64,000 nt of DNA from Bilabrum cf. latius. Its lineage: Eukaryota. Where the stretch lies: assembly GCA_965178125.1 (NCBI GenBank), contig CBCXTV010000001.1:124001-188000 (forward strand), written 5' to 3'. Under the pieces are notes generated by a model. That model searched no databases. It worked only from the letters and a program-made list of their open reading frames with translations, and had not been told where the DNA came from. Each line of letters begins with the position of its first letter. Position 1 is the first letter of the stretch. Made by a program: the position numbers and the translations under genes. Below are positions 15,322 through 42,596 of the stretch, piece by piece.

Positions 15322-15401
15322 AGCAGACAACGCATTTGTGGTCCCCCTCCACGTCGGCATGGGCTTGAAGTGGTACCTCAGGAGGATTTCACTTGCGCCG
15401 G

Positions 15402-21857: not shown

Positions 21858-22731
21858 CGACGAAATGCCGCAGAACAGCGCGTTGCGGGGAGACAAAGCT
21901 CCGCGGGCAACAGCAGAAGGCCGCCGAGCGCCGGAGTTGGAGGGTCACATAGTTCCATCGGTCCCATTCTCTCCGGAAGTCGCATAGCACGTAGAGATCC
22001 GCATGCTCTCGGTGCATGAACGCTGGCAGCACGCAGTGCCAAAGTCGCAAAGCGCTTCAGAGTCACAAGTCCAGAAGTTCTTCTGCCAATGTGTGTCCTC
22101 TTCCCGCTCATGTGTGCATCCTCGGAGGAAGTCTGGAGATGACAGGACCCAGCACGCAGCACATCAGAAGTCCTTTTTTAAAGCGGCATCGTCAGACAAA
22201 AATCTGGAACGCCCTTCCGCAAAAAAGAGTGCTGCCCACAGAAAAAAGGGAAACACCTGAGGCCCCAGAAGCCAAAGGGAGGACCGCGAAGGACGCAGTT
22301 TCGAGGTCACACTTTCCGGGACCAGTTTTGAGCCCAAAAAGGGGTACACAAGAGGAAAACACGATGCGGGAGGCTTGAAATTGTCACCGAAAACGGGCCC
22401 AAAATTGGGACCCCTTTTTCGCAAATTTCGCAGCATCCAGACGACCCAGAAAGGCTTTCCCAGGCGCCGCCTCGAAGCTCACCTTCTCGCATGCAACCAT
22501 GACGCAGCCCCACCTCCTCATGCAGACGCGTCTGAGAGACCCCGCAGTGGAACTTCTCCCATTCTGCGCAGGAAGCACTTCAGTCTACAAGGACCCGCGC
22601 ACTTCTTACCGCACCACCTCCATGTGAAAGCACTTCTCGCGGAGTTTTTTTCGGGCCCAGGAATACAGCAACTGCCAGAAGCTTCGCACAGAAAAGCAGC
22701 CCACTCAGGAAGCAAACTCACTGCACACCCC

Positions 22732-23202
22732 ATGGCGAGCGACGCAGAACCGGAGGACGCAATGCGGCTCGACTCCCCTAGAGATGCGGATGCAGCGGCG
22801 CCACCCGAAGCGACGGAGGCAGGATCACAGAAACCAGATCATGCGCAGCAGTTCTTCGAGGAGCCCTGCCCGAAAGACGGACACATGGAAGCGCTAGAGA
22901 AGACCGCCAAGACGGACGAACCTGGCGACACACCCTTGTTCGTCGACAAGTGGACGGCAGCGATCACACGCCTTACCGAGGAGCGCAAGGCTCTCAAGCT
23001 CGAGCAGCGGGCTAAAACGAAGGCCATCCGCAAAACCATCCGGCAGAAAAGGCGCACCATGAAGAACGCCAAAAAACTCACAGACGACGAGCTCGCCCAA
23101 ATCGTGCTAGACAGGAAGATCTTGCAGTTGGTGCAAAAAGAAGAGATCGCAGCACGCAGCTCCGCCAACTCCTCAACGAGCCAGGCGAAGTCGACCTTGT
23201 GA
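22732..23202 (+). CDS. Small basic coiled-coil protein upstream of hairpin A
   Basis: ATG 22732 (MASDAEPED) within ORF 22375..23202; acidic N-terminus then RLTEERKALKLEQRAKTKAIRKTIRQKRR...LTDDELAQIV. Confidence 0.6.
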   Translation: MASDAEPEDAMRLDSPRDADAAAPPEATEAGSQKPDHAQQFFEEPCPKDGHMEALEKTAKTDEPGDTPLFVDKWTAAITRLTEERKALKLEQRAKTKAIRKTIRQKRRTMKNAKKLTDDELAQIVLDRKILQLVQKEEIAARSSANSSTSQAKSTL

Positions 23203-23623
23203 GAAGCGCTTCCCGTGTTCAGAGAACCGAGGATTACAGATAGACCCCGCGTCACAGAAGCCATCGCAAGAGGGCAGAGCGTCAAGTACAGCGCAGTCTT
23301 GACGGACACAGATAGCCCGAGCAGCACAAAGCAGCGGATGCGGCTGCCCAGCGGAGTCGCGCACTCGGACAGCATACACGGGACGTGCTGGCAGAAATCA
23401 CTCAGTCCGCGAGCACCGTCGTCAAGAGCACGGGAGGGGCAGACTCGACATGCACAACTTTGAAAAACGGGAGGGCACGAAAGGAAGACAAATTTGGCAT
23501 TAATCCTTGATTACCCCCGCCCCCCCGTAGAATCAGAGCGAGGAGATATGCTCGGAAGGTCCGGGGGGCAGTCGCAGAAAAGTGCACGCGAAAATAAGAG
23601 GAAAGGAGACCCCCCAAACCCAC

Positions 23624-23687
23624 GTAGTGCGACCCTCGGGGGTACCCTCTAAGGTACTAAGAATCCTTCCCCCGAAAATCGCACTAC
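23624..23687. promoter_or_regulatory. Stem-loop A, candidate rolling-circle origin
   Basis: GTAGTGCGA (23624-32) pairs with TCGCACTAC (23679-87); inner CGGGGG/CCCCCG and GTACC/GGTAC; ~690 bp upstream of rep. Confidence 0.6.
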
Positions 23688-23723
23688 ATCGGTCCCTGGC
23701 GTCGGGGAAAGCGGAAAAAAGGG

Positions 23724-23868
23724 GAGCACTACCGTGAAAAAATCCTGCATTTTACAGGAAAATCGGAGCACTACGTGTCAAAAACTGGGGGTTTTTGAGG
23801 TTTTTTTTCCAGAAAAACGGCATTTTTTTATGTAAAAACCGCGCGAAACGAGCACTACCGAGCACTAC
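23724..23868 (+). repeat. Iteron-like GAGCACTAC direct repeats (4x)
   Basis: Copies at 23724, 23766, 23850 and 23860; share GCACTAC with the hairpin arm; spaced by A/T tracts. Also at 50919..51063. Confidence 0.75.
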
Positions 23869-24376
23869 ATCGCCTCCTCCAGTCGTGTTTCGCATTTTTT
23901 TCGCTGGCCGAAAATGTCTCCGAAGGCGCTGCCTCGAGGGGGGGTTCCGATGGCTGATTTTGGGCGTTCTGTTGTCGATTTCGCGTGCATTTCAGGTTGT
24001 CGGCGAGGCCTTTTTGGCGTATGTCGCAGTTCGGATGCCCTCGAACGTCGTGTCTCATGTGGTATTCGCCGGTTTCTATGTTGGAGAAGGCGGTCGGTCG
24101 ATCATCCTCTCTGGCAGGCTCCGAAGTGCGTTTGTGATCGTGCTAATTGCAACGCCATGCTTTCCTTCGTTGGCTTCGAGAATCCTTCCCTCGGAAGCGG
24201 TAGTACCTCGCCCAGGGCGGCACGAGCTGCAGACTCAGCTGCCTCGGTGCTCATGTGTGTCCCGTGTCAGCAGTTTCGGTGTTACGAACAGCAAGGATTC
24301 TGGGCATTGCGTGTCGGAGGCAAGTGTTCTATCTTGAGGCATTCCGCGATTCGTCGAAGGATTATTTGCGCAAATA

Positions 24377-26662
24377 ATGTCGGCTCCGTTCAAGGGCGAA
24401 ACGATGAGTTTGTCTGTTGCCGAGTCGCTGAAGTCCCGAGTCGCATCCTGCTCCTGGGATCCCGCGTGGGTTTCCGCGAGCTGCGTGCCGTGCGATGGCC
24501 TCCCCACAAGCCAGGAGTCAGAAGCGTCCACGACGGCGACCTCTGCTTTGTTAGGGGTGTCCGAGGCGTCCCCAACGTGCTCGTGTGGCCTCGGTGTCTC
24601 CAATTCGGTGGCTGCAGCGCGCGCGGCCGCTGTCCCGAGTTTTGGCTTTGACGATGCGGAGAACGACTTCGACGCCAGTCTCGACATGATTGAGGCCTCA
24701 TGCGAGGTCGCATGCGAGGCAGAATGCGAGGGCGATCCGGGAGCCTGCTTGTTGTCCCACGGCAAGTCGAGCGGTCAGTGGCAGATCGGCGTAGTGGGTG
24801 AACGAGTCCTTTATGAGGGCCTCAGCGTTGAGGGCGACATTCCTGGCCGCGTTGCTGCCTCCGAAGCGCTCGCCGCGGGTGTCATCAATTTGGAACCCCC
24901 GTCAGAGGAAGTACTTTTGCCGGTGCAGCTTCTGCGGAGTAGTCAAGGTTACCGTGGGGTTCTGCCCATCGAGGATTCTGCGCCCGATGCGAGGGGGCGA
25001 CCGCAGATGCTCATGCTCCCCGATTTCGTGCCCCGCGTGAAGAGGCGGCGTCTTCGGCAGAAGTGCGACCCTGCTGAGGGCGATGCAGCACCGAGTCTTG
25101 CGGCTCATCTCGGACCTCCGCCCGCGGCTCGTGCCGCGGCCGGAGCGTCTGGGCCGCAGCGCTCGACTGGAAGGCCTTCGACTCGTCCTATTGATAGTGT
25201 CATCTATCGTCTCCTGCGGGTTTTCCCTGACGATTTCAAGTTGGCGTTTCCGGCGTCGGTGTCACACCAGCGGAAGCGGTGCCTCATCAGGGAGGCGCTT
25301 CGCAATGTACCCGGTGACCGCATGTGCATCTTGAAAGACTGGGCTGCGGGGGCGGAGGACACTCCTTGCCAGCTTCGTTTCGAGGAGCTCTTCCCGGAGC
25401 TTGCGCGGCAGCGGGACGAAGTTGTGAGGAATCCGGGATCGCACTCAGTGCCCGTGGGCGAGATTGTGCCTGCGTCCGACAAGAACACGAGGCGGGGAAG
25501 GGCCGTGATGCTTACCTTTCACGGTCGCTGGGGTGTCGAAAAGGAGCCTGTGCGCGACATCATGTCGGCATCCGTGGCAAGGGGCGTCCTGAGGCGATTG
25601 GTTCTCGCGTCTCCGTTCTATGTGGAGCTTTGGGCCACCTTCAAGGCATGGGCGCAGGACATCGCGCGGCGGATGATGTGGCCTCAGCTGTCCATGAAAA
25701 TGGAGCTCTCCCTGCACCGCAAGCACGCCGCAAACTTGGTGCACTTCCACGTATGCATGACGGATTCCGAGAAGTCGCATCGTTGTCGCGTGGCGGAGGA
25801 TTTCATGTGGGCCGGCAGCAGGCCGAATGTCGTCTACGGCTCCGGGCGGTCAGCGAAGGCGCAGGAACGTGGCGCGTCGGAGTTACACTATTATTGTCAA
25901 GCTCCCAAAGTCGGTGCGCTGCTTTGCGCCACGAACTACCGAGCCGGACGCGATTTCGTCGTCAATGGTAAGTTCGTGCACGCGTTGTTCGCACGCTTCA
26001 AAATGGATCCGGACGTCGCGAGAAGGGAACTCGTGGCGTATCGGTGTCGGGACGCCGAGAACTTAGTGCGCGCCATCGACTTCCACATACAGAATACCGC
26101 GGAGAGGAGAGAGGTGTGCGCGCAGGCCGCGGTGCACGTAGTGACGAAGCTCCGCCCCTTTAAGGTGGTGCCCGAAGTCGAGAAGTGGCGCGAGAGCTAT
26201 CGTCAGGAGTGGTTCGCGCACATGCGCTTCAAGTTCCTTGTCTTGGTGGGGGACTCCCGGTTCGGGAAGACAGTGTACGCGCGGAATCTCTTCGGGAGCG
26301 AAAGGACTCTTGTTGTGAACTGTCAGGGCAGTGTGGAACCTCCGCTCCGTGGCTTCGATCGAAGTCGGCATGTGGCCATTGTGTTCGACGAGGCAAATGC
26401 CCTGTGGGTCGTCAACAACAAACAGGTCTTTCAGGCTGGCCTTGACCCCTCCCTGCTCGGCCAGAGCAAGACGAACAGCCTCGCATACTCTGTGTGGCTC
26501 CACGGTATCGCCCTGATCATCTGCACGAATTCGTGGGGCTCTGACGTGACGGAGTCGGCGGACCGCGATTGGCTTGACAACAACTGCACGAAAGTGGAGG
26601 TGAAAGATCGGCTCTACTTCGACGAGGACTTGTTGTCTCTCACGGATGTGCAGAAGAGCTGA
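24377..26662 (+). CDS. rep: Rolling-circle replication initiator (HUH endonuclease + SF3 helicase), geminivirus/genomovirus-like, with a long N-terminal extension
   Basis: Motifs in canonical order: motif I (VMLTF), motif II (VHFHVC), motif III (HYYCQAPK), Walker A (GDSRFGKT), Walker B (IVFDE), motif C (IICTN), and C-terminal DWLDNNC resembling gemini/genomovirus Reps. Confidence 0.92.
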   Translation: MSAPFKGETMSLSVAESLKSRVASCSWDPAWVSASCVPCDGLPTSQESEASTTATSALLGVSEASPTCSCGLGVSNSVAAARAAAVPSFGFDDAENDFDASLDMIEASCEVACEAECEGDPGACLLSHGKSSGQWQIGVVGERVLYEGLSVEGDIPGRVAASEALAAGVINLEPPSEEVLLPVQLLRSSQGYRGVLPIEDSAPDARGRPQMLMLPDFVPRVKRRRLRQKCDPAEGDAAPSLAAHLGPPPAARAAAGASGPQRSTGRPSTRPIDSVIYRLLRVFPDDFKLAFPASVSHQRKRCLIREALRNVPGDRMCILKDWAAGAEDTPCQLRFEELFPELARQRDEVVRNPGSHSVPVGEIVPASDKNTRRGRAVMLTFHGRWGVEKEPVRDIMSASVARGVLRRLVLASPFYVELWATFKAWAQDIARRMMWPQLSMKMELSLHRKHAANLVHFHVCMTDSEKSHRCRVAEDFMWAGSRPNVVYGSGRSAKAQERGASELHYYCQAPKVGALLCATNYRAGRDFVVNGKFVHALFARFKMDPDVARRELVAYRCRDAENLVRAIDFHIQNTAERREVCAQAAVHVVTKLRPFKVVPEVEKWRESYRQEWFAHMRFKFLVLVGDSRFGKTVYARNLFGSERTLVVNCQGSVEPPLRGFDRSRHVAIVFDEANALWVVNNKQVFQAGLDPSLLGQSKTNSLAYSVWLHGIALIICTNSWGSDVTESADRDWLDNNCTKVEVKDRLYFDEDLLSLTDVQKS

Positions 26663-26907
26663 CGCCGGCCGCTGAGGTTTTCAGTCCGGTTCACACGAGC
26701 GCCGGAGCCGCAGCGGCAGCCGCTTCGGTGCTCCTGAAGGTCTAATGTCCTCAATGCGTTTCGTGTGCAAAAAGGATGTGGTTTCTACATGGGGGCATTC
26801 CGCAAGTTTCATGTGGTCCGTCGCGTTCGTCCGGGGGAGTGCTTGCCTAGTATTGGGAGCTTGCCTGACACACACACACGTGGCACCCAGCCTGATGGGT
26901 TGCAAGT

Positions 26908-27759
26908 GTGTGTGTGTCTCCGCAGTGCCGCGGTTGGGACCCGGCGGGTCGTTTGCTTTTACGTCGCCGCGTCGCGCGCCGACGAGACATTTCTTGGTCT
27001 CAGAAGCCTCTGCTTCCGGTAGGCGCGCCGTGTACACTCGCGGGCCGAAGGTGGGTGCGTTGCTTGATGGCCTACGTCGGTATCGCCGATGCACCGTATG
27101 TGCCCGTGGTTGCCGCGTCGACCTCCGAGCACGCCCCGGAGGGCGAGGTGGAGATGATGCTTGCGCCTCTTGCCGGAGATGTCGGTTTCAAGCGGCCTCG
27201 CGTGTTTCCTCCCGGTTCGCGACTTCTTCCTAAGTCGCCGGCCCATCCGGCGGTGCTCATAACAGCGCTCGGCAGTGAGGCACCCCAGGACACACAGTGC
27301 GTCGTTTGGTCGGACTCTAAGGCTTTCGACCTCGCGGAGTTTGTATGCTCTTCCTGCGGCTGCAATCGTGTCATGGCGGACCTGAATCATCGTATGCGTG
27401 ATCGTCTCGTACGTCGCGTGCAGCGCACGCTTTATGCCGATGATTCTCCGTGCGGCAGGGGTGCGATTTCGTGTCGTGCTTGTCGCGAGAAGGCGCGCGA
27501 CGCGGCGCCGAAGACGTCGATTATGAACGCGGCGAACAAGAAGAAGATCTCGGGAACTCTTCGCATGCAGTTGGATCTCATTGTAGAGACCGGGGAGCGG
27601 AAGGGTCAGCGTTGTACTGCGGAGAAAATTCTGACATTGGGAACGATGAAGCAGCACAGGGTTTTCGAGAGGGACCTTTACGATGAGGCATGGCGCGGGC
27701 TTGTTCGTCTGTCTGGACGCGAGGCTTGGAGCGATGACGACTCGTGGTCTCCGCGTTGA
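26908..27759 (+). CDS. CxxC protein downstream of rep (likely start ATG 27067)
   Basis: VCSSCGC...ISCRAC pair; open frame of 283 codons. Confidence 0.55.
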   Translation: MCVSPQCRGWDPAGRLLLRRRVARRRDISWSQKPLLPVGAPCTLAGRRWVRCLMAYVGIADAPYVPVVAASTSEHAPEGEVEMMLAPLAGDVGFKRPRVFPPGSRLLPKSPAHPAVLITALGSEAPQDTQCVVWSDSKAFDLAEFVCSSCGCNRVMADLNHRMRDRLVRRVQRTLYADDSPCGRGAISCRACREKARDAAPKTSIMNAANKKKISGTLRMQLDLIVETGERKGQRCTAEKILTLGTMKQHRVFERDLYDEAWRGLVRLSGREAWSDDDSWSPR

Positions 27760-28593
27760 GCTTGCGTGACGGTTTTCCCTCTTAACCTGGCCTCTTGCGT
27801 GGCGCTGCTTCCGCGTGTGGCCTGAGCGTGCGACCTGAGCGTTCGGCCTGCTGTCGCGTGTGACCTGAGCGAACGGGCGCTCGACAGTATCCCGCGTTTG
27901 TTGCTTCTGGGGTTCAAGAAACTTGTACTTTTTGGGCTGTACGGTGGTCAGTGGTGCACGGTTCGTTCGCAGCCTCCGCGTTGTTGGAAAGCTATGGTGG
28001 AGCATGGTTCTTTTCGCAGCCTCCGCGTTGTGATCAAGCTACGGTGGAGCATGGTTCGTGAGCATGGTTCTTTTCGCAGCCTCCGCGTTGTTGACACGTG
28101 AAAGCTACGCGAACGTGACCACACAATAGGCCATACCCCAGGTGAAATCCGGACTCGGACATCCAGACGAAACGGCATCATGCACACTGTTGAACACACA
28201 AATGACACTGAGCTCCACCGTAACGTAACTTTCCATCACCACCTGGTTTATTTTCTCCGCGATGGCAGCTTGGCGGTGACGCTGTGTCTTCGGGCATGAA
28301 GGGGCAAATCTTTGATTTTTTGGGCCCTGTTTCGGTCACCGAAAAGTCGTGTGATTTCTGGCGCGCAGGAGGAGTGACGCAAGGTATTTCTGAACCGTTT
28401 TCCGGACGCTTTCCGGGCCTCCCATGTGACCGCTTTTTGCGTACCGAAACACGTTCCGCGCGTGAGGAGCAGATGCGGATCTCCGCGGGGTCCTAGTTGT
28501 GTCCTTTTTCGGGGGACGAAATCGGGCGCACTTGTCGTGCCGATTCGTGGTCGTCTCTGAGACCGGCTGCGAGTCGGGAAAGGTGCCCGGGAG

Positions 28594-29886
28594 ATGCTCG
28601 TGTCCTTGGCTTCGTATTTCTCCGCGTATTCTTCAAACGCGGGCGCACGTCTCCTACCGATTCGTGGTCGGTTTCCGAGGCCGATCGCGAGTCGGGAAAT
28701 GCGCCCGCGATGCGCTCTCGATCTCGGAAAGGGCGGGAGTCCGTTCTTGCATTCGGAATGGGCGGGGAGTTGCTTTTCCTGGGAGCATGTGCGAGATTCC
28801 TTCTCCGCGGGTCCTCTTTCGGCTTCGGCAGTCAGCAGCGCACTCTGCGGGAACGGCATTCTCCGAGTCTCTTTGCCGATGATGTCTGAGGAGAAACCGT
28901 CCGAGAGCATTGCTGTTTCCTTGGGAGACGGCCGCAATCTTCGTGCGCGTCGAGGCGCCGGTGATATGGGAAACGAGGGCGGCATGTTGGCGCGCGAGGT
29001 CGACGCGCCGGCGGAGCACGCCGGCGCGGCGGCAAGCGTCGATGATTCGGGCGGCCCCCACATCGAGAGCGGCGGCGCGGAGGCGGCGTCCACGGGGATG
29101 CTCGGAGAGGAGAGCGGCAAGGCAGCGCCGAAGGAGGACGCCGAAGACGACGGCGGCAAGAAGACGGAGGAGGAGGATGCTCGCGGCGGTGGACGTGCTG
29201 TGGTGCCCGGAGGTAATGACGACGTATGGACCAACGCAGCAGCTTGGAAGGCGGGTGGCGGCGTGGCAGCCGGGGCGGTCTCTGGCGCTGATAGCTGGGA
29301 TCTATGGGGGACCCCTGCGAAGTCGTCATGGGGGGAGACGTACGTGCTGCGGCAGGTCGCGTCGGAGCCGGCGGAGGAGGCGACATGGACTTGCAACGCG
29401 TGCCAGTGCTGCAAGCCCCGGTCGGCGTACTTTAAGAAGTGGAAGGACTGGATCCAACCAGTTTGCCGGGTGTGTTGCGACAAGTTCGACAACGCGACGC
29501 CGTGGTGGGTGTGGTGCAAGAGCTGCAAAAACGAGTATCCGGCGTACCGATTTCCCCAGATCCGCCGGAAGAAGGAGAACTTGCGCTATTTCTTCCCTGA
29601 GGACTGGTGCGCGAAGTGCCTGGTTGCGCGTGGCTGGAGTCTCCATGATGTCCGTTCCTCTGCGGGTGAAGCGAAGCGTTGGGTGCCAAAAGCTGGCGCG
29701 AATACCGGTGACGGCGACAACGACGCTCGTGCTCCCGCACGCGACGAGCTTCCTGCAGGAGGCGCCGCCTCCTGCAGCAACGCCGTGCGTCAGAGTTCTT
29801 CGCGTGACGAGGCCTTGGATGACATCAAGCGGGCCATGGAGCTTCTCCAGAATGCGGAAAGGTTCCTCCTCACGATGCCAGCGTGA
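28594..29886 (+). CDS. CxxC zinc-finger protein, copy 2
   Basis: Same ORF with DSGG and WDLW variants. Confidence 0.7.
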   Translation: MLVSLASYFSAYSSNAGARLLPIRGRFPRPIASREMRPRCALDLGKGGSPFLHSEWAGSCFSWEHVRDSFSAGPLSASAVSSALCGNGILRVSLPMMSEEKPSESIAVSLGDGRNLRARRGAGDMGNEGGMLAREVDAPAEHAGAAASVDDSGGPHIESGGAEAASTGMLGEESGKAAPKEDAEDDGGKKTEEEDARGGGRAVVPGGNDDVWTNAAAWKAGGGVAAGAVSGADSWDLWGTPAKSSWGETYVLRQVASEPAEEATWTCNACQCCKPRSAYFKKWKDWIQPVCRVCCDKFDNATPWWVWCKSCKNEYPAYRFPQIRRKKENLRYFFPEDWCAKCLVARGWSLHDVRSSAGEAKRWVPKAGANTGDGDNDARAPARDELPAGGAASCSNAVRQSSSRDEALDDIKRAMELLQNAERFLLTMPA

Positions 29887-30963
29887 CGCGGGAGCTTCCC
29901 GAATGGGTCCGTCGTACTGTGAGGGCGCTCCGGAAGGAAGAGCGCGAGTGAGTCATCCTTGCGCCGAGGTGAGCGCGACGTCGGAGGAGCACGGTCGTTT
30001 GATTGGGAACGATATGGTCGGCAGAGTGTGAAAATCCGAGTTTCTCGTGCAGGATTGGGCAGCTCTCTAGATATCTTGCCTGGGAAGGGTGTGATGTGGT
30101 GGGAGCGCTTCCGCCTCACGTGGCAGACGTCCACACTTCCTGGTTCCCCGGCAGGCTGTTTGGCGAGACGGAGTGGCAAAGCATCCGCCTGCTGATTCCT
30201 ACTTTGTTACCTCGATTGTGAGCTCGGAGCTTGGGGCGGAGGATTCTGCGGGCAGCTCATGTGTGCCTAGAGTGTCATCCCGCGACCCTCTGACTTCTGT
30301 TCGTGGCTTTACCTCTTCGCGCAGGAAGATTCCTCATGAGGCAAGCCCGGTCCGAACTCGCGTGGGATGCCGTGCGCTGGTGCGGCTTCCACTCATCCCC
30401 GGGGTGGGGAGCGCTGGGTAAAGGATCGTCTGTCCCTGCAAGTTTCGATTCGGCGAGGTGCGGCAGCATGACGCGGACCGAGGTGAAGTCCTTTGTCCGC
30501 GATAGGTCGCCGCGTCGCGCGGTGGCGACCCCACAGCGCCCCAATCCCATTCCGGAGAGGGGGTGTGATGCAGTGGGAGCCCTTCCGCCTCACGTGACAG
30601 ACGTTCACACTTCCTGGTTCCCATAAGGTCTTCAGCACAGCGCATGCGAGGCAGGCTGTTCGGCGAGACGTAGTGGCATCGCCCCCGCCTGCTCATTCCT
30701 ACTTTGTTACCTCGATTGTCAGCTTGGGGCTCGGGGCGGCGGATTCAGCGGGCAGCTCATGTATGCTGGAGTGTCATCCCGCGACCTCTGACTTCTGTCC
30801 GTGGCTTTACCTCTTCGCGCAGGAAGATTCCTCATGAGGCAAGCCCGGTGCGAACTCCTGTGGGATGCCGTGCGCTGGTTCGGATTCCACTCATGCCCGA
30901 TGTGGGGAGCGCTAGGGTAAAGGATCGTCTGTCCCTGCAAGTTTCGATTCGGCTCGAGTCAAT

Positions 30964-31509
30964 GTGAGGAAGGAGAGGTGCGGCAGCATGACGCGGAACG
31001 AGGTGACGTCCTTTGTCCGCGATAGGTCGCCGCGTCGCGCGGTGGCGACCCCGCAGCGCCCAAACCCCGCCCCGCCTAGTCCTCACTCGACAGCGGTGTC
31101 GAACCTGCAGCAGCGCTTCGAGAACATGCAGCAGCGTGCGGAAAGCTTGAGCGCTCAGCTGGAGTACGCCCAAAGTGTGATCAGGCTGCTCTCAGGCCTG
31201 TTGCGCGATGAGGCTCCTCGGTTCTATGCAGACTTTGATCCCGTGATTCGGCGTGCGATGTCTGGCGCAAGCGGCTCCGTTGCGGGTAGGTCTTTCCGTC
31301 TTGTGGACGGAGGCGTCATCCACGGACCTGACACAGCAGTCGCTGCTCCTCCGCGTCGTCTCATCGTTGAGGTGCGTACGGACTGGGAGATGACCGAGAC
31401 TGCCTCAACTGTGCTGGATTCCTCAGGATCAGACGACATGGGTTCCGAGGACTCGCCGCCGCCGACCGTCGTCCTCCCCAGCGGCGCGGCGGGCGCCGGC
31501 GGTGCCTAG
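30964..31509 (+). CDS. Hypothetical coiled-coil protein, copy 2
   Basis: Same translation. Confidence 0.45.
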   Translation: MRKERCGSMTRNEVTSFVRDRSPRRAVATPQRPNPAPPSPHSTAVSNLQQRFENMQQRAESLSAQLEYAQSVIRLLSGLLRDEAPRFYADFDPVIRRAMSGASGSVAGRSFRLVDGGVIHGPDTAVAAPPRRLIVEVRTDWEMTETASTVLDSSGSDDMGSEDSPPPTVVLPSGAAGAGGA

Positions 31510-32047
31510 TCCTCGGCAGCTCCTGCATCGGAGCCTCCTGTCGAGATTCGATCGCGCAACGTCGTTCCTTACATTGCTTGCCGTCGCATGTGCCGGGCGG
31601 TGGTGGGTGTGCGTGTTCGCCGAAAGTTCCCGGCCTCGTCTTCCTCAGGAGAGCTCCTCGACCCGAAATTGGCAGCTCAGCGCTGCCGTGGCCGATACAG
31701 TACCCGTGCATGGCCAGTTGGCAGCTACGCGCTGCCGTTGCCAATGTCGTCCGCACGAGAGCAGAGTGGCAGCTCAGCGCAGGCGAGAAACCGCGCTCGC
31801 AATGCTGCGAGGTGTATTCAATGCTGTGCACGTGTCTATCCCTCTCCCTGGTTTTGTCTCGCTTGCGCCAGTGTGACCGCAGCAGAGCGGGTGCTTCCCG
31901 TGCGTCTTCAGCTTTGAGCACTCCTCCAGCGACAGGAAGGCATTCGCTTGCTCTCGCTCCCCGCCTGCGTCCTATCCCTCCCGGGTATCTTCAGAGGCCA
32001 CAGGCAGTGCGAAGCTTGGCAGCGGGTCCGTCCGCGTCGTTTCGGCT

Positions 32048-33685
32048 GTGAGCGATCTTCTGCCCGGTTCCTCACGCGTCATAATGTCCTCTGCTTCGGT
32101 GCCGGATCAGCTCGCACGGATCAGTAAGGAGCTGAAGTGTCTCAGAGACGCGAGACAACGGGCGCGCAATGGGCTGCGCCATCCGTGGTTGCGCGCCATG
32201 GAGGCACAGGTCGCTGAGGTTATTCGTCATCACCCCGGCGGTGGCGAGGCAGCTCTTCGAACCTATGTCTCTCGTCAGTTGCAGAGTCGACAGGTTTCCA
32301 CGCGGACGGCTTCGCAGGAGGAGTTTCAAAGGCAGGTCGATGAGGAGGTCGCGCTCACCATGAGGCGCCCAGCTGAGGCGTGGCAGCGAAATCCTCTTCG
32401 CTCATGTCATCGAGAGTCCGTGGCACGCGCAGAGACCTTTCTCGCCGAGGCTTCTGTCGTTGCTTGGATCGACCATGTGAACGAGCAGCGTGGGTGTGCT
32501 CCAACTGGGAACATGGTTTTCGCCATGCTTGCGAGGATGGGCGTTCGCGCGGGGAAGGACTCGGCTCGACGGCAGTGGCTCCTGCGCTTCCGTCGTCGTT
32601 GGCGGCTTCGGCATGGCCGATTGAAGAAGCAGCCCCCGGTAACACTCGATTACGTCAGACTCGCGTGTCGTGTCTTCTATCAGTGGATTGAATTCGCAGA
32701 AGCGCGAGTGCCCCCCAACCGCCGCCTCGTCTTTGTGAATTTCGATGAGTCCAGCGTGCCCTTTGCCTTTCCGGGAATGCGCGGGTACATCGCACCGAGG
32801 TCAGGAACGGAGCCCGCTTCGCTTGGTTCGCGCACGGAGCGCCTCGCCTCGAATAGCAATCGAGGATCGTACACCTTTCTGGGTTTTATTAGCGACTGCC
32901 CGGAAATCCAGCGACGACTCCCGCGTATACTCATCGGGAAGCACACGCGGCTGAGCAAGCGCTTGATGCGTGGGGCGCCGAACCAAATGGTGGACGGAAT
33001 GGAAGTCTGGGCCCGAGAGAGCTCGTGGGTGACGCAGTCCCTCATGTTCGACATTCTGCGTCGGCTTTTCGCTTCTTGGATGGACATTCAGCATGAGATC
33101 TATCCAATAGTGATACTTGACTGCGCGCCCCAACACATTTCCACTGAGATTGTGAACTTCGCACACGGCCTTGGCATGGATCTCGTGTTTATTCCTGGTC
33201 GACTCACCTTCCTGCTTCAGCCGTTGGACGTTCTCGTCTTTCAGCTTCTTAAGCGCGACCTTCGGGAGACGTGGATGCAGGAGCGCTCGCGTCATGAAGC
33301 GGGTCATGTCGATGTCTCTTGCCATCTCAGGGTTGTCGCTGAGTGCACGAAGAGAGTGCTCTCGTCTGGCTCGTGGCAAGGCGCTTTCGATATGACAGGC
33401 ATTACCAGCGGCAGGCGCCGCTTGCATTCGACCCTACGGCGCTTGTTTGAGTGTGACATGGAGGACATCTCCAGCGATGCTCCGTCTGTCGACCAGCTCC
33501 GCTTCATCAGCAGTCCGCAGCAGCCTCTCCCGCACGATGCGCTCATCAACAGGGCCCCAGTCGCGTCCGGACACGCGGTCGACGGAGGCGTCCACGGTGG
33601 TAACGCTCGCCGCGTGCCTCGTGGCCGCAGACTAAACGGATGGACCCCCCGCGATCGCGCTCACCCCTCGGCGGCCATGCCGTGA
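32048..33685 (+). CDS. pogo-family DD35D transposase, copy 2
   Basis: Same translation as 4853..6490. Confidence 0.92.
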   Translation: MSDLLPGSSRVIMSSASVPDQLARISKELKCLRDARQRARNGLRHPWLRAMEAQVAEVIRHHPGGGEAALRTYVSRQLQSRQVSTRTASQEEFQRQVDEEVALTMRRPAEAWQRNPLRSCHRESVARAETFLAEASVVAWIDHVNEQRGCAPTGNMVFAMLARMGVRAGKDSARRQWLLRFRRRWRLRHGRLKKQPPVTLDYVRLACRVFYQWIEFAEARVPPNRRLVFVNFDESSVPFAFPGMRGYIAPRSGTEPASLGSRTERLASNSNRGSYTFLGFISDCPEIQRRLPRILIGKHTRLSKRLMRGAPNQMVDGMEVWARESSWVTQSLMFDILRRLFASWMDIQHEIYPIVILDCAPQHISTEIVNFAHGLGMDLVFIPGRLTFLLQPLDVLVFQLLKRDLRETWMQERSRHEAGHVDVSCHLRVVAECTKRVLSSGSWQGAFDMTGITSGRRRLHSTLRRLFECDMEDISSDAPSVDQLRFISSPQQPLPHDALINRAPVASGHAVDGGVHGGNARRVPRGRRLNGWTPRDRAHPSAAMP

Positions 33686-34704
33686 CCTCGACCACGACCA
33701 TGTCAGGGGCGAACGCGACTTCGTCAACCTCGAGCACGACCATCCCAGCGGCGAACGCGGCTTCCTCGATGGGATCCCTGACCCCGACGAAGCTTCCCCG
33801 ACCTCGGCCACGTGAACCTGCAGGCGCATTCTTGCCCGATGTGCCCGCGCAGGTGGCGGCCTGCACGGCGTGGGCGCCACCGTTTCGTCGACCAGACAGC
33901 TCAGCCACTCCGGCGACGCGCGAGGCGGCAACGTCCACGTGCATCAATCCGTGGACCGCTCTCTCCTGGTATCCGACACCACCGCAGCCGACGGACCCCC
34001 CTTCCGACAGGCCTCGCGAGGTACCGAACCGGAGCTCCCGGCAGCAGCGCAGGCGTCATGCTTGGGGCGGCACGTGGGTGTTCGACGACGCCATTACGCT
34101 CAGCGATTGCGGGTCGAGGGTGCAGATCGACGCGCCGCAGTCGAAGCTCTTGGCGATGGTCCTGCCCCGGAAGTCGGGCCAGTGGATTCCTCGTAGGCTG
34201 CGCTCGCGTACGATCTGGTATTTGGCTGGGGAGCAGTCGGCCGTGATCACCAACCTCAAGTGCCAGGCCTGCAGTCGGGTCAAGCACGCGGACAGCTTCA
34301 ACCCGAAGAGCTTGCGTCGGGCTCAGTACTCGTTGCTGCATTCCCTGTGGCCCGGCTACATACGACGTACCGAGCGGTCTATTTGGTGCACGCAGTGTGC
34401 GGTGGAGGACCAGTTGATGCAGGGCAACTTTCCGGACGGCTACTGTTTCCGGATCCGCGCCACACTCGAAATTTGCCATCAAGATCGCGTCGCGGCCAAG
34501 CTGTTTGCAGTGCACGACAGTAACGCTCTCTTCGAGCAGATCCCGCTGAGCTCCCGTGCGGCCATGGACGTGGCGGAGCAGTTGCGCCGATACTGGCAGG
34601 ATGCCGTGTCCTCAGACGGCCAGAGCAACATCTTCCACAGCGACCACGTTTCGACAGACGACGACTCTGAGTTCGCACCGGGCGGACCGGAGAGCGTGCC
34701 GTGA
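33640..34704 (+). CDS. 354-aa CxxC protein, copy 2
   Basis: Same translation. Confidence 0.65.
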   Translation: MDPPRSRSPLGGHAVTSTTTMSGANATSSTSSTTIPAANAASSMGSLTPTKLPRPRPREPAGAFLPDVPAQVAACTAWAPPFRRPDSSATPATREAATSTCINPWTALSWYPTPPQPTDPPSDRPREVPNRSSRQQRRRHAWGGTWVFDDAITLSDCGSRVQIDAPQSKLLAMVLPRKSGQWIPRRLRSRTIWYLAGEQSAVITNLKCQACSRVKHADSFNPKSLRRAQYSLLHSLWPGYIRRTERSIWCTQCAVEDQLMQGNFPDGYCFRIRATLEICHQDRVAAKLFAVHDSNALFEQIPLSSRAAMDVAEQLRRYWQDAVSSDGQSNIFHSDHVSTDDDSEFAPGGPESVP

Positions 34705-35025
34705 GGGACCGCAGCGACAGTAGCGTCGCTTAGGTGAGGAGCGGGTGCCAATGCTCTTTTGAAAATGGTGTGTCGTACGTACGGCAGGAGCCGTCGGTGG
34801 GAGCGGGGCGGATCCTGCGGGAAGTCGTGGAGACTGAGGGCAGAGACTCTCGGGTCGGTCAGGGTCTCATGTAACGTGCTGTTCACCGCAGAGGTATGTG
34901 CGGATCTTGGTGGATCTCTCGAGGACATGGGTGGCATACCGTTGTGCATCCGTTCCCCGGGGGGGGCGGTCGCAGAAGAGTGCACACGAAAACAAGAGGA
35001 AAGGAGACCAACCCCCCAAACCCAC

Positions 35026-35089
35026 GTAGTGCGATCCTGGGGGGTACCCTATAAGGTACTAAGAATCCTTCTCCCGAAAATCGCACTAC
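35026..35089. promoter_or_regulatory. Stem-loop B, copy 2
   Basis: Same sequence at +27195. Confidence 0.55.
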
Positions 35090-38000
35090 CTCGGGCCACA
35101 ACGTCTTGGTGGATTCCTCGAGGACATGGGTGGCATACCGTTGTGCATCCGTTCCCCGTCGCTCCCTAACGTCTTCAGTGGCAGGTTCGGAAAAGACACC
35201 TCCGTAGGCACGCGACAAGTCCCGGTGAAGCGGGCTCGCACCGCGCTGGGCGGGAGATCGTGAGCGCTTAGAGGACCGGAGCTTTCGGGCGGGTGCGTGT
35301 CTCGACAAACTCCCTCTTGACCACGGGCGGGGAACGTGTAGGGCGGAAGCTAAAGACACCGTAAGTAGCGGAGGGCTAACATTCCGTCCTTCGGTGAGAG
35401 CCAAAAGTTCGAGTCTGCGAGAGACTATTATACGAAGTTCTCCCCTCCTCATACGTGCGCATAGCCTCCTCACGCGGTAGCGCGAGCGCGGGACCCGGAC
35501 CTGTCCCTGATGGGCGTGAATCTGAACCCGGCGTACTCTCCTAGTCTGTCACTTCCACGACCTTGTTGTCGCGGAACCACTTGCACGGAGAGGAACCTGT
35601 CGTTCAAGCGGGTGCAGCCGGACGCGCAGGTGTAGTGCATCGCCTTGCATATGTGCACGGCCAAGTAGATGCCGGAACCGTAGAGGTATCACACTTCCCG
35701 CGGAGCTTGGGTGGGTCTTTCGCTGCTGTCGTCTGCTCCAGAAGGTTTGCGCCAAAAACCGGAAAACTTCTAAGACAGAGGTGGGATGCCAGGAGCTCAC
35801 GGTCCTGCCGGATTGGGGAGGTCCATGCCCACGCGAGCCGGGTACGCGTCCAAATCAACGCACAGAGCGGGAGCTGAGGGCGCCAAGGACGCTCACTGTC
35901 AGGCACACACAACGCGCACAGAATTCGTCATTTCGCGTTCAAAGCCTGCCAACGACGTGGCGCTTGGCGAAATGTGGTGGGTCGCGAAGATGTGGTACTT
36001 CGCCGTGCCTTTCTCTATGACGGCCAAGCGTGCACTCGCCATCGCGCTCGGACGCCACAGGAAGAGATCCCAGCTCGCAGCTCCGCCGCCTCATCCAGGA
36101 GTAAGGCGAAGTCGAATCGTGAATAGCGCTTCGCACCTTCACAGAGCCGAGGATCACAGATAGGCCCCGCCTCACAGAACCCAGCGCCATAGGGCAGAGC
36201 GTGAAGTACCTGGCCGCTTGGCTTGGCCGGACCCCCGCCCGCCCTCCGCCGGCAGCTCCTCCCGTCCGTCCCTATGGAGGCAGATCCGCGTACCCATGCT
36301 GCGGCGGGATCCTGACACAATCCGCTCCTCTTAGTGTGTGGCCGTGGGGCATGAGTGGAGCAGCATCGGGCCCTCACCAGCCGTGGAACGGAAGCAGCTC
36401 TCCGTGCGGCAGCTGTGCGATGCACAGACCTCGTCCCAAAGATACGGATCCATTTTGCCGTCTTCCCGCGCATACTGCATCGCTCTGCAAAACTGCATTG
36501 CGCAGTGGATCCCCGAGCGTCGACTGCCAATAGCAGGCGGCCTCGCAAGGCCTTCATGGACGCAGGATTTGGGCTTCTTCATCGTAAATTTGGGGTCTGC
36601 TCAGCGCGCGAAAATTCCAACGCTTCAAAATGATCCGGACGTCGCGAGAAGGGAACTCGTTGCTTGCTCACCTGTGCGGAGGGGTTGGATGCCCGATGTG
36701 CTAAAGAGAGGATACTGTCCGTCGGCGTTCTCTCTTCACCTTGTGCGGAAGGGTTGGGTGCCTGATTTCAGACAGAGAAGGTCTCGTCCGTTGGGAGCGC
36801 TTAGGAATACTTCCGGATGGGGCGTCCAGACGCGGTCCAGGACCTCCAGCTCGTCGGGGTCAATGTCGCCCGCGCCGTCCGTGCCTTTGACGCCTCTGGA
36901 TCGATGATGCCCACGATCTTTGTCATCTCGGACGACACACGTCCCAGCTGCTCTTTGGTAGTGCATTACCTCATTGACCCCGAAGCGTTGAATATTTAAT
37001 GAAGACCCTTCGGAAGCTGGCGAAGTTTGTCAGCTTGTCGGAGCGCAGCCTGGGTCCTTGTCAACAAACATGGAGGGTTTCGGGGCGGATTTCCAGCGTT
37101 CCGCCTTGATATCGAGTGCACCTCGAGGTCGGGATCGAAGCGGGGCGGGCGGTTCGTCATCCTCTGTGATACGCTTAGGAGGCGCCGACTTGATGCCCAC
37201 CTTGTCCCCCAATCACTCCAGACGTAACTGGGGAACTCTTCCCGTCGTGGGCCGGGTACGCCTCCGAATCCCACGCGAGCCGTTCCCCACGGCGCACCGA
37301 TAAGCGCCGCTGCAAGCGTACCAAGAGGGGCGTACCAAGAGGTGCTTCCTTCGCTCGGCAGTGTGGCACTTCAAGCAGTAGAATGTGCCACTCCCAGCAC
37401 GTAGGTGGAGTTTGCGAGCTGCCGGCCGACATGCTCGTGTGGTGACCTCCGGCGCACCGATAAGTGCCGCTGCAAGCGCACCAATACTACTTCGCTTGGG
37501 AGCGAGGCACTTTAAGCAATGCAGTGCGCCGGTTTTCGTGCACGCCCGGTCGCGCGGACGCCGCAGGTGGCTTGGCCGTAGGATAGAATTAGTGGCGGGT
37601 CGGTTTTGCATGTCTTCCCTCTCCTCTTGATATGGTACACAAAGGCAAGAGCCTGACGATGCAGACGGAACTCCTGGATTTCACCGCCACATTCCTAGTC
37701 AAGACAGCCCTCGACTAAACAGACGCCGAGTTATCTTGAGCAGCATCCCACGACGCAGTGATGTGGACGGCAAGGGTGATGCCATGCTTTCCGGGCCTCC
37801 CATGTGACCGCTTTTTGCGTACCGAAACACTTTCCGGGGTCGACGCCCCGGCGGAACACGCCGGCGCGGCGGCAAGCGTCGATGTTGCGGGCGGCCCAGC
37901 CATGAGGTACATGATCAAGTACACGGAAAGCACGCAGAGCGTCGTCAATCCGTTCGTGAGCCGCGAGTTCCAAAAGGTCTTCGAGACATCCGCCCGGAAA

Positions 38001-42319: not shown

Positions 42320-42516
42320 CAGTGCGCTGGGTAGGTCCGCAGGTCAAGGAGGCGCTCGCAGTTATAGACGTAGGTGGAGTTTGCGAGCTGCCGGCCGACA
42401 TGCTCATGTGGTGACCGGAGGTCACCACATGAGCATGTCGGCCGGCAGCTCGCAAACCCCACCTGCGTCTATAACTGCGAACGCCTCCTTGACCTGCGGA
42501 CCTACCCAGCGCACTG
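42320..42516. repeat. Long inverted repeat, copy 2
   Basis: Same at +27195. Confidence 0.93.
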
Positions 42517-42596
42517 AGCAGACAACGCATTTGTGGTCCCCCTCCACGTCGGCATGGGCTTGAAGTGGTACCTCAGGAGGATTTCACTTGCGCCGG

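What the first reader, a model, noticed from the sequence alone, without database searches (positions are those of the whole stretch)
23624..35089. Candidate new element class: gemini-like rolling-circle Rep co-encoded with a pogo DD35D transposase, no capsid
Seen: an intact HUH+SF3 Rep and an intact DD35D transposase are co-oriented with three CxxC genes between two direct copies of one stem-loop, 11,402 bp apart. I found no TIRs around the transposase, and its 3' end overlaps the next ORF, so it looks like a resident gene rather than a nested insertion. Known: CRESS viruses pair Rep with a capsid, Helitrons use HUH+SF1 helicase, pogo elements are normally single-gene TIR elements, and Polintons pair a replicase with an integrase. 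Inference: a self-replicating transposon or integrating plasmid in which Rep releases and amplifies circles and the DDE enzyme integrates them. I do not know of a named family with this combination.
Basis: partly seen in the sequence, partly recalled or inferred. Interest (0 to 1): 0.92.

Follow-up and report, generated by a model that had tools for sequence, protein, structure and literature searches.

The report
Rolling-circle Rep element with resident transposase
A 27-kb stretch of DNA repeated head to tail carries a virus-like rolling-circle replication gene, with what looks like its own origin, beside an intact cut-and-paste transposase gene; this rare pairing may mark an undescribed kind of self-amplifying mobile DNA.

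Summary
ORF 24377-26662 is an intact HUH+SF3 Rep. Pfam misses it, but the catalytic residues are invariant in 43 relatives, and its model matches AAV Rep68 and genomovirus and geminivirus Reps by fold. ORF 32048-33685 is a pogo-type DD35D transposase (Pfam DDE_1) with no canonical TIR or TA. Two 137-nt stem-loop modules lie 11,402 bp apart. Only the first, just upstream of rep, also has four GAGCACTAC iterons.

New context:
- The whole window is 2.35 head-to-tail copies of a 27,195-bp unit.
- The other 15.8 kb of the unit has no Rep. It is a mosaic of fragments copied from the Rep-bearing half, plus a 910-aa ORF.
- One public run holds thousands of variant contigs of the element.
- The Rep family is large (2,360 clusters) and has no Pfam model.
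- A distant relative is a 2.6-kb Rep-only unit flanked by hairpin iterons, so the transposase is not a family-wide feature.
- A Rep relative and a transposase relative, each about 50% identical, both sit on an ENA contig of exactly 14,535 bp. This suggests the linkage is conserved in this sublineage.

Best reading: an amplifying element derived from a rolling-circle replicon, with a resident transposase. Nicking, circles and integration are inferred, not shown. Partial precedent: the Tuber geminivirus-like transposon.

The parts
1..64000 (+). Head-to-tail array, 2.35 copies of a 27,195-bp unit
   Evidence: Repeat families spaced 27,195 bp apart. Copies differ by 14 of 27,195 (first vs second) and 1 of 9,610 (first vs third) substitutions, with no indels.
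23563..23695 (+). Stem-loop module 1 (hairpin 23624-23687, stem GTAGTGCGA/TCGCACTAC, 46-nt structured loop)
   Evidence: 89.8% identical over 137 nt to module 2. DNA fold -18.1 kcal/mol, z -4.65, matched by 0 of 200 shuffles.
23724..23868 (+). Four iteron-like GAGCACTAC repeats between stem-loop 1 and rep. The motif repeats the 3' arm of the stem.
   Evidence: 8 matches in the window (4 per unit, in two units) against 0.22 expected; 0 of 100 shuffles reach 8. None lies beside stem-loop 2.
24377..26662 (+). Rep, 761 aa. The N-terminal ~340 aa are of unknown function. The HUH (Y1) nuclease and SF3 ATPase lie in residues ~342-761.
   Evidence: No Pfam hit.
26908..27759 (+). ORF283, with CxxC pairs 42 aa apart
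   Evidence: A 63%-identical homologue follows the 74%-identical Rep on metagenome contig L002. No Pfam or Atlas hit.
28594..29886 (+). ORF430, with five CxxC motifs in a C-terminal Cys-rich block
   Evidence: A 98% copy of 1,169 nt lies in the other half of the unit. Only close homologues were found (2 proteins).
30087..31509 (+). Tandem duplication of ~500 bp (30087-30548 / 30561-31068, 83%) running into ORF181 (30964-31509)
   Evidence: No Pfam hit.
32048..33685 (+). pogo-type DD35D transposase, 545 aa (D233, D358, D394)
   Evidence: Pfam DDE_1 E 2.2e-11. HTH_Tnp_Tc5 E 0.016, below the cut-off. Alignment A2.
33640..34704 (+). ORF354, overlapping the transposase 3' end by 46 nt. Its CxxC pairs are 42 aa apart, as in ORF283.
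   Evidence: GC3 0.78.
30843..34683 (.). Segment bounded by a perfect 15-nt inverted pair (GCCCGGTGCGAACTC), enclosing ORF181, the transposase and most of ORF354
   Evidence: (2 of 300 shuffles reach 15 nt). Outer flanks are AA and GG, not TA.
34905..35158 (+). Stem-loop module 2 (34961-35097; hairpin 35026-35089), bracketed by a 55-nt direct repeat (34905-34959 / 35104-35158, 96%)
35159..50757 (+). Rep-less half of the unit. It holds direct-orientation fragments (40-1,169 nt) of rep, ORF430 and ORF354; chimeric ORF440 (39658-40980); 72-bp and ~398-bp tandem repeats; a 197-nt palindrome (42320-42516); ORF910 (46320-49052); and ORF275 (49570-50397).
   Evidence: ORF910 resembles GT25/GT11 glycosyltransferases in the Atlas search only (score 0.91, a lead). 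Pfam does not confirm this.

Best explanation
The flagged 11.4 kb is the gene-bearing half of a 27,195-bp unit, present here as at least 2.35 head-to-tail copies. I read it as a selfish, amplifying element derived from a rolling-circle replicon, in a host that is probably a microbial eukaryote.

**Anatomy.** It has a CRESS-type Rep (a one-tyrosine HUH nuclease fused to an SF3 helicase). Its presumed origin, a stem-loop plus four iterons, lies directly upstream. A second copy of the stem-loop lies 11.4 kb downstream. Between them are three Cys-rich ORFs and a catalytically intact pogo-type DD35D transposase. The transposase is a resident gene of this sublineage, not a recent nested insertion.

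**Proposed mechanism**
- Rep binds the iterons and nicks the stem-loop.
- Rolling-circle synthesis makes head-to-tail multimers.
- Between origins in direct orientation it can also release circles of 11.4, 15.8 or 27.2 kb (replicational release).
- Template switching during such replication made the Rep-less mosaic half, which depends on Rep acting in trans.
- The transposase most likely inserts double-stranded products into chromosomes.

**Shown:** sequence anatomy, folds, residue conservation, the array, many variant copies, and indirect evidence of conserved linkage.

**Inferred:** nicking, circles, dependence in trans, and integration.
For: - **Rep fold and invariant catalytic residues:**
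- **Origin-like anatomy:** a 137-nt module twice per unit, with iterons only between stem-loop 1 and rep.
- **Same layout in a distant relative:** L004 has six hairpin-iteron copies (CGGCGCGAATCGCCG) upstream and two downstream of a 649-aa Rep ORF. The contig end repeats positions ~245-296.
- **Array:**
- **Many variant copies:** 30,875 contigs of run X1 were laid on 16.5 kb. Of these, 17,277 were at least 99% alike, 9,074 were 95-99%, 3,703 were 90-95% and 821 were under 90%. All 30 bins were covered.
- **Mosaic half, with fragments all in direct orientation:**. Two of its junctions (25841>34019 with TTA between, and 29057>21308) recur in contigs of other runs, X12 and X11.
- **Transposase:** DDE_1, with DD35D conserved. 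No canonical TIR or TA. It overlaps the next ORF.
- **Linkage:** Rep relative P0002 (52% identical over the C-terminal part, 44% over full length) and transposase relative P0013 (50%) each list a single ENA contig of 14,535 bp.
- **Control for that logic:** the window-like transposase P0010 and the ORF430-like P0179 both list 25,927 bp. P0025 and P0180 both list 17,177 bp.
- **Neighbour gene:** the Rep-ORF283 order is kept on L002.
Against: - No circle junction, and no joint between the two stem-loops, appears among the 15 joints shown. A further 84 were not shown.
- No junction between array and host lies in the window.
- The shared 14,535-bp contig is inferred from equal lengths only. The DNA could not be fetched.
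- Only 6 transposase homologues were found, against a Rep family of 2,360 clusters. The two searches differ in sensitivity.
- A Rep-only relative exists (L004).
- ORF430 has no diverged homologues.
- The canonical CRESS nonanucleotide is absent from the window, and the 46-nt loop is atypical.
- The 15-nt inverted pair could mark a separate 3.84-kb transposase cassette.
- If the host arranges its genes in one-directional arrays, co-orientation means little.
Confidence: 0.45

Rival explanations
1. The transposase is a passenger. A pogo-like cassette, possibly the 3.84 kb between the 15-nt inverted pair, entered an ancestor of this Rep sublineage or was captured with host DNA. It is now carried along and amplified with the array. 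It plays no part in the element's mobility. Rep alone, or host recombination, drives amplification.
For: - A Rep-only relative exists with the same origin-Rep-origin layout (L004).
- The 15-nt perfect inverted pair encloses the transposase; only 2 of 300 shuffles match it.
- There are few transposase homologues (6) against 2,360 Rep clusters.
- The unit clearly accretes and shuffles foreign pieces.
Against: - The catalytic triad is intact, and full-length conservation is 49-55% among four lineages.
- It probably occurs together with a ~50% diverged Rep on one 14,535-bp contig.
- There are no TA flanks, the inverted pair does not extend beyond 15 nt, and its right arm lies inside ORF354.
Confidence: 0.25
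2. This is not an integrated element. It is a 27.2-kb extrachromosomal circular plasmid or virus-like episome with two origin-like sites. Long reads of its multimers, or the assembler, laid it out as a linear concatemer. The transposase would then be a plasmid gene, for example for occasional integration or resolution.
For: - The window is repeat from end to end, with no flanking host sequence.
- The copies are 99.95% identical.
- Summed word depth in X1 is very high.
- The element is held by runs labelled with at least 10 organisms in 11 studies. A high-copy episome of a widespread microbe would show this.
Against: - Copy 1 resembles copy 3 but differs from copy 2 at 14 sites. This suggests distinct physical copies, or a mixed population threaded together.
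- 13,598 of the 30,875 X1 contigs laid are under 99% alike. That diversity fits genomic repeat families better than one plasmid.
- No closed circle was recovered; other assemblies list contigs of 25,927 and 17,177 bp.
Confidence: 0.2
3. This is a fossil, not an active element. An endogenised CRESS-like replicon together with neighbouring genes became a satellite-like 27-kb tandem repeat through unequal crossing-over. The ORFs are open only because amplification was recent, or because they were domesticated.
For: - Tandem array with near-identical copies.
- A scrambled, partly degenerate half.
- No evidence of circles.
Against: - Catalytic residues of Rep are invariant across 43 diverse relatives, and the family is large.
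- Iterons and stem-loop are kept next to rep.
- A comparable origin-like layout occurs in a 34%-identical relative.
- The transposase triad is conserved.
- These point to selection on function in the lineage, though not necessarily in this copy.
Confidence: 0.15

Closest known systems
CRESS-DNA virus and pCRESS plasmid Reps (Cressdnaviricota; by fold closest to Genomoviridae and Geminiviridae Reps)
   Same: A one-tyrosine HUH nuclease fused to an SF3 helicase. A stem-loop with nearby iterons upstream of rep. The CRESS Rep architecture is as described in PMC10288648 (passages read).
   Different: - No Pfam Gemini_AL1 or Viral_Rep hit. Only 2 of 43 relatives give a weak Gemini_AL1_M hit.
- No capsid family was recognised in 20 ORFs scanned.
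- The unit is 11.4 or 27.2 kb rather than a few kb.
- It lies in a tandem array.
- The canonical nonanucleotide is absent (the motif is recalled, not taken from a call).
- The Rep has an extra ~340-aa N-terminal region.
Geminivirus-like transposon of Tuber melanosporum (Liu et al. 2011, PMC3198968; passages read)
   Same: A geminivirus-like Rep ORF and transposase ORFs in one repeated eukaryotic element, recently amplified.
   Different: The Tuber consensus has interrupted ORFs and 37-bp TIRs, and no origin was described. The passages read do not name the transposase type. Here both genes are intact, there are no TIRs of that kind, a stem-loop-plus-iteron origin is present, and the copies are tandem.
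Replitrons (Craig 2023, PMC10288648; abstract and passages read)
   Same: A eukaryotic element built on a Y1 Rep distantly tied to CRESS Reps, with short direct repeats at or near its ends.
   Different: Replitron transposases have no helicase; they have Rep plus a putative oligomerisation domain. The abstract and passages read mention no DDE transposase (0 occurrences of 'DDE'). Here an SF3 helicase is fused to Rep and a DDE gene is present.
Helitrons
   Same: Rolling-circle HUH elements of eukaryotes that capture and shuffle gene fragments and can form tandem arrays (PMC6431247, passages read).
   Different: Helitron RepHel has two catalytic tyrosines and a helicase fused to Rep (PMC10288648 abstract); that paper's Fig. 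1 legend lists SF1B and SF3 as the helicase types drawn, and that Helitrons have the SF1B type is recalled. Here there is one conserved tyrosine (Y165; the neighbouring Y is C in some relatives) and an SF3 ATPase.
pogo/Tigger (Tc1-mariner superfamily) transposons
   Same: DDE_1 catalytic domain with DD35D spacing, and a weak HTH_Tnp_Tc5 match upstream of it.
   Different: There are no terminal inverted repeats next to the gene and no TA duplication. The gene is embedded among other genes and overlaps the next ORF. The TIR/TA hallmarks of pogo are recalled knowledge.
Replicon-plus-integrase composites (Polintons; Teratorn = piggyBac + herpesvirus, PMC10175614, abstract start seen in listing)
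   Same: The logic: a self-replicating module joined to a DDE-type integration enzyme.
   Different: Those replication modules are protein-primed or herpesviral DNA polymerases, not an HUH-SF3 Rep. They have terminal repeats and structural genes. The features of Polintons are recalled.

Membership tests
CRESS-type Rep (HUH + SF3) | HUH motif, single catalytic Tyr, and Walker A, Walker B and motif C of an SF3 helicase in one protein | tested here: met
   Motifs are invariant in 43 relatives. Foldseek matches full-length AAV2 Rep68 (E 9.5e-8), vientovirus Rep and CRESS Reps (E down to 2.7e-15). VIA gives PCV2 Rep ATPase Z 10.3 (rmsd 2.6, 120 aligned) and vientovirus Rep Z 9.5 over model residues 30-409. 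Generic AAA+ hits tie at Z 10-11.6.
Geminiviridae Rep (Pfam Gemini_AL1 / Gemini_AL1_M) | Significant match to the Pfam geminivirus Rep models | tested here: not met
   0 hits for the window protein. 2 of 43 relatives hit Gemini_AL1_M at best E 0.0012.
Cressdnaviricota virus | Capsid gene beside rep | tested here: inconclusive
   No capsid family was found in 20 ORFs scanned with Pfam. The ORFs were not folded, so a divergent capsid is not excluded.
Cressdnaviricota virus | Small circular ssDNA genome | not testable with these tools
   Only a linear tandem array is seen. The interval between origins is 11.4 kb, and the whole unit is 27.2 kb.
Cressdnaviricota virus | Origin stem-loop with canonical nonanucleotide (NANTATTAC; recalled) | tested here: not met
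   A stem-loop is present, but ANTATTAC has 0 matches in the window.
Helitron | Rep with two catalytic Tyr fused to an SF1-type helicase | tested here: not met
   One conserved Tyr. The ATPase domain matches SF3 Reps, large T and E1.
Replitron | Y1 Rep transposase without a fused helicase | tested here: not met
   A P-loop ATPase domain is fused to Rep. The definition is from the PMC10288648 abstract.
pogo / Tc1-mariner transposon | DDE_1 domain with DD35D triad | tested here: met
   Pfam DDE_1 E 2.2e-11. D233, D358 and D394 are conserved.
pogo / Tc1-mariner transposon | N-terminal HTH DNA-binding domains | tested here: inconclusive
   HTH_Tnp_Tc5 E 0.016, 15.6 bits against a cut-off of 22.2, residues 133-189. 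The AF2 model was too poor to use (pLDDT 55.5).
pogo / Tc1-mariner transposon | Terminal inverted repeats flanking the gene, with a TA target duplication | tested here: not met
   Only weak inverted pairs were found. The one perfect 15-nt pair lies 1.2 and 1.0 kb away with AA and GG flanks.
Tuber geminivirus-like transposon (PMC3198968) | Rep and transposase ORFs bounded by 37-bp TIRs | tested here: not met
   No TIR of that size bounds the Rep-transposase region.

The most novel reading that the evidence does not exclude
This is a new class of eukaryotic mobile element: a capsid-less rolling-circle replicon (CRESS-type HUH-SF3 Rep with its own stem-loop and iteron origin) that has taken in a pogo-type DDE transposase as its integration module. 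Rep amplifies the element as circles and head-to-tail multimers, and mobilises Rep-less mosaic satellites that carry only the stem-loop. The transposase inserts these products into chromosomes without classical TIRs. The element belongs to a very large Rep family that Pfam does not model and for which my literature searches found no description; its related metagenome loci carry aquatic sample names.
Probability: 0.25. Interest if true: 0.9.

Novelty: new variant of a known kind. Interest (0 to 1): 0.7.

Why it matters
Known eukaryotic elements that pair a replication module with an integration enzyme (Polintons, Teratorn) use DNA polymerases. Known eukaryotic HUH elements (Helitrons, Replitrons) use Rep itself as the transposase. 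An intact CRESS-type Rep with its own origin, travelling with an intact DDE transposase, would be a third design. It would also be a possible living intermediate between plasmids or ssDNA viruses and transposons.

The case is directly testable, because the array offers two origins in direct orientation, a Rep-less satellite half and a candidate binding motif.

Independently of the transposase, the Rep family is large: 2,360 clusters at 50% identity, 712 of them with E at or below 1e-30. No Pfam model covers it. My literature searches found no description of it.

Tried and rejected
- **Own genome:** none is held.
- **Sequence searches of Rep:** PDB found nothing significant. Plasmids and phages found nothing by tblastn. 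IMG/VR found nothing for Rep, the transposase or the stem-loop pattern.
- **GTDB genome contigs:** only two remote transposase-like hits (25-28%) in bacterial MAG contigs, which I take to be irrelevant.
- **Metagenome scan:** six short Rep contigs (1.0-4.9 kb). None is long enough to test for a transposase 5.4 kb downstream.
- **Exact look-up of eight window ORFs:** none is in the collection.
- **Bridging gene:** ORF430 was tried as a gene that might link contigs of relatives. Only two close homologues were found.
- **Transposase structure:** pLDDT 55.5, so I ran no fold search on it.
- **ORF283:** no usable hit in the Atlas.
- **ORF910 as glycosyltransferase:** an Atlas lead only. Pfam does not confirm it.
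- **197-nt palindrome at 42320-42516:** I considered it as abutted transposon ends (its outer ends read CAGTG...CACTG) and rejected that. Its arms are an inverted duplication of an ORF910-like coding fragment, and the flanks are not TA.
- **Dinoflagellate spliced-leader relic:** 2 matches with 3 mismatches against 1.46 expected, so no signal.
- **Rfam and tRNA scans of one unit:** nothing.
- **Expression:** no RNA holder is listed.
- **Stem-loop-to-stem-loop joint in laid contigs:** none among the 15 joints shown; 84 were not shown.
- **Earlier findings of this scan:** nothing.
- **Paper supplements:** not opened. Additional files of PMC3198968 may name the Tuber transposase type.

Full report
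**What is in the window.** The window has about 60% G+C. It consists entirely of 2.35 head-to-tail copies of a 27,195-bp unit. The first and second copies differ by 14 substitutions in 27,195. The first and third differ by 1 in 9,610. There are no indels. No whole genome is held for the window, so the host is unknown. I take it to be a microbial eukaryote. That rests on the pogo-type transposase, the KRRR-like basic stretches in Rep relatives, and the lack of any match in prokaryotic plasmids or phages. It is an inference only.

**Rep.** ORF 24377-26662 (761 aa) has no Pfam hit. Its C-terminal 420 aa carry LTFHGRW, VHFHV, LHYYCQAPK, GDSRFGKT, IVFDE and IICTN. A word-based search found 9 homologues. 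A profile search of 1.84 billion representatives found 2,360 proteins at E up to 0.001, 1,582 at E up to 1e-10 and 712 at E up to 1e-30. I picked 42 of the 150 listed hits, spread down the list, and aligned them with the window protein. In that alignment E102, H115, H117, Y165, K170, G284, G289, K290, E331 and N377 are invariant. The tyrosine before Y165 is cysteine in some relatives, so this is a one-tyrosine Rep.

The AlphaFold model (10-row alignment, pLDDT 79.3) matches the following:
- By Foldseek against PDB: full-length AAV2 Rep68 (E 9.5e-8), vientovirus Rep, papillomavirus E1, SV40 large T and B19 NS1.
- By Foldseek against BFVD: a Genomoviridae Rep (E 2.7e-15), begomovirus and crucivirus Reps and many CRESS Reps.
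- By VIA-align: PCV2 Rep ATPase at Z 10.3 and vientovirus Rep at Z 9.5 over residues 30-409.
- Generic AAA+ proteins tie at Z 10-11.6, so the ATPase fold alone is not specific.

At sequence level the tie to geminiviruses is faint. Two of 43 relatives hit Gemini_AL1_M at best E 0.0012. I therefore call it a CRESS-type HUH-SF3 Rep and not a member of the geminivirus Rep family.

**Origin-like sites.** A 137-nt module occurs twice per unit, at 23563-23695 and 34961-35097, with 89.8% identity. Each folds as a 9-10-bp stem (GTAGTGCGA/TCGCACTAC) around a structured 46-nt loop. The z-scores are -4.65 and -3.58, and 0 of 200 shuffles match either.

Only the first module is followed by four GAGCACTAC repeats (23724-23868). 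These lie between it and the rep start. The window holds 8 copies against 0.22 expected. The repeat has the sequence of the 3' arm of the stem. This is the layout of an iteron-plus-hairpin origin of rolling-circle replication. The canonical CRESS nonanucleotide (recalled) is absent.

A 34%-identical relative, L004, shows the same logic with different sequences:
- Six copies of a small hairpin motif (CGGCGCGAATCGCCG) lie upstream of a 649-aa Rep ORF, and two lie downstream.
- The contig end repeats positions ~245-296.
- This gives a Rep-only unit of about 2.6 kb.

Origin-Rep-origin in direct orientation is therefore a feature of the family. The transposase is not.

**Transposase.** ORF 32048-33685 (545 aa) hits Pfam DDE_1 (E 2.2e-11). 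Its N-terminal part gives a sub-threshold HTH_Tnp_Tc5 match (E 0.016). D233, D358 and D394 give DD35D. D358 and D394 are invariant in 8 of 8 aligned sequences. D233 is present in 7 of 8, the eighth being N-truncated. An AlphaFold model was too poor to use (pLDDT 55.5).

No canonical TIR or TA duplication flanks the gene. The one notable inverted pair is a perfect 15-mer at 30843-30857 and 34669-34683:
- Only 2 of 300 shuffles reach 15 nt.
- It has a third, direct copy in a local 500-bp duplication.
- It has AA and GG flanks and does not extend.
- Its right arm lies inside ORF354.

It remains unexplained. It could be a binding site, or the mark of a 3.84-kb cassette. The gene's 3' end overlaps ORF 33640-34704 by 46 nt.

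**Is the transposase resident?** Homologues were few (6), at 100, 83, 55, 50, 52 and 31% identity. Four lineages are roughly equidistant at 49-55%. The three Rep lineages are equidistant at 42-44% over full length. This is compatible with co-divergence but does not prove it.

The strongest evidence is indirect. Rep relative P0002 and transposase relative P0013 each stand on a single ENA contig whose length is given as 14,535 bp. The same reasoning recovers known neighbours. The window-like transposase P0010 and the ORF430-like P0179 both list 25,927 bp. P0025 and P0180 both list 17,177 bp. I could not read these contigs.

Closer to the Rep gene, contig L002 (Rep 74% identical) keeps a 63%-identical ORF283 homologue downstream. 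The other metagenome loci are too short to reach a transposase.

**Other genes.** ORF283, ORF430 and ORF354 carry CxxC pairs. ORF283 and ORF354 share a 42-residue spacing between pairs. No Pfam family other than DDE_1 passed E 0.001 in 20 ORFs scanned. One weak BTAD hit (E 0.0049) fell on a minus-strand ORF over tandem repeats. No capsid was recognised, which is a weak negative.

**The other half of the unit.** 35.1-50.8 kb has no Rep gene. It contains, all in direct orientation, fragments of 40 to 1,169 nt copied from rep, ORF430 and ORF354. It also contains:
- a chimeric ORF440
- 72-bp and ~398-bp tandem repeats
- a 197-nt palindrome that is an inverted duplication of an ORF910-like fragment
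- ORF910 and ORF275

ORF910 resembles GT25/GT11 glycosyltransferases only in the Atlas search (0.91, a lead).

Two of the mosaic junctions (25841>34019 with TTA between, and 29057>21308) recur in contigs of other runs (X12 and X11). The mosaic is therefore not an artefact of this assembly. Such patchworks are what template switching during rolling-circle or recombination-dependent replication would produce. That is an inference.

**Abundance and spread.** Of 24 runs listed, 15 hold the 10-kb query or part of it. Ten hold half or more of its words. They come from 11 studies and carry at least 10 coded organism labels. In run X1, 30,875 contigs were laid on 16.5 kb (17,277 / 9,074 / 3,703 / 821 by identity class), and all 30 bins were covered. 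Runs X11-X13 gave 75, 76 and 49 contigs, including near-identical pieces in the transposase region. The element is thus a high-copy, variant-rich repeat in at least one sample.

**Comparison with the literature.**
- *Replitrons* (PMC10288648; abstract and passages read) have a Y1 Rep without a helicase.
- *Helitrons* have a Y2 Rep fused to a helicase (same paper's abstract); that it is of the SF1B type is recalled.
- *Tuber melanosporum* (Liu et al. 2011, PMC3198968; passages read): a geminivirus-like repeat with an interrupted Rep ORF, two transposase ORFs and 37-bp TIRs. This is a partial precedent for the pairing.
- *Replicational release* of geminivirus DNA from tandem origins is established. 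I rely on recall here and saw only the listing of PMC10653810.
- Seven full-text searches found no description of an HUH-SF3 Rep element with a pogo transposase, nor of this Rep family.

**Verdict.** The transposase looks like a resident gene of a Rep sublineage, but the division of labour (Rep amplifies, the DDE enzyme integrates) is untested. The 11.4-kb stretch is half of a larger tandem unit rather than a delimited element. I rate it a new variant of known kinds (CRESS-type replicons, and replicon-plus-transposase composites), of high but not top interest until the relatives' contigs and the physical form of the DNA are examined.

Noticed in passing
window 34905-34959 and 35104-35158: Stem-loop module 2 is bracketed by a 55-nt direct repeat (96% identical), giving an X-S-X arrangement of 254 nt. 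Module 1 has no such bracket. This could be the trace of an insertion or of a slipped duplication of the stem-loop module.
   Followed up: partly
window 23784 and ~35000-37600: Cumulative A-T skew peaks exactly at stem-loop 1 and its iterons. The skew per kb flips there from +0.24 to -0.21. It reaches its minimum plateau from about stem-loop 2 onward, although the long ORFs of both halves lie on the + strand.
   Followed up: partly
window 42320-42516 (also 15125-15321): A 197-nt palindrome with 97-nt arms (97% complementary) and a 3-nt spacer. The arms are an inverted duplication of an ORF910-like coding fragment.
   Followed up: yes
window 37898-38981 and 48503-48604: 72-bp repeats inside a 499-bp higher-order duplication. 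The repeat is derived from a piece of ORF910 (88-90% identity). A second array of ~398-bp repeats lies at 42597-43500.
   Followed up: no
window 46320-49052: A 910-aa ORF with strong coding signal (GC3 0.77). By language-model features its nearest Atlas clusters are GT25/GT11 glycosyltransferases, mostly of Nucleocytoviricota (score 0.91). Pfam gives no support.
   Followed up: partly
L004 1-2903: A metagenome contig with a Rep-only unit of ~2.6 kb. A 15-nt hairpin motif occurs six times upstream and twice downstream of a 649-aa Rep ORF. A run of more than 20 C lies at the contig start.
   Followed up: partly
window 23501-33500 (query): Near-identical sequence is held by runs labelled with at least 10 different coded organisms in 11 studies. 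This suggests a widespread associated microbe or a contaminant, rather than one host species.
   Followed up: no
window 30843-30857, 30345-30359, 34669-34683: The 15-mer GCCCGGTGCGAACTC occurs three times per unit: two direct copies (one with a mismatch) and one inverted. The window holds 9 against 0.35 expected. Its function is unknown.
   Followed up: partly
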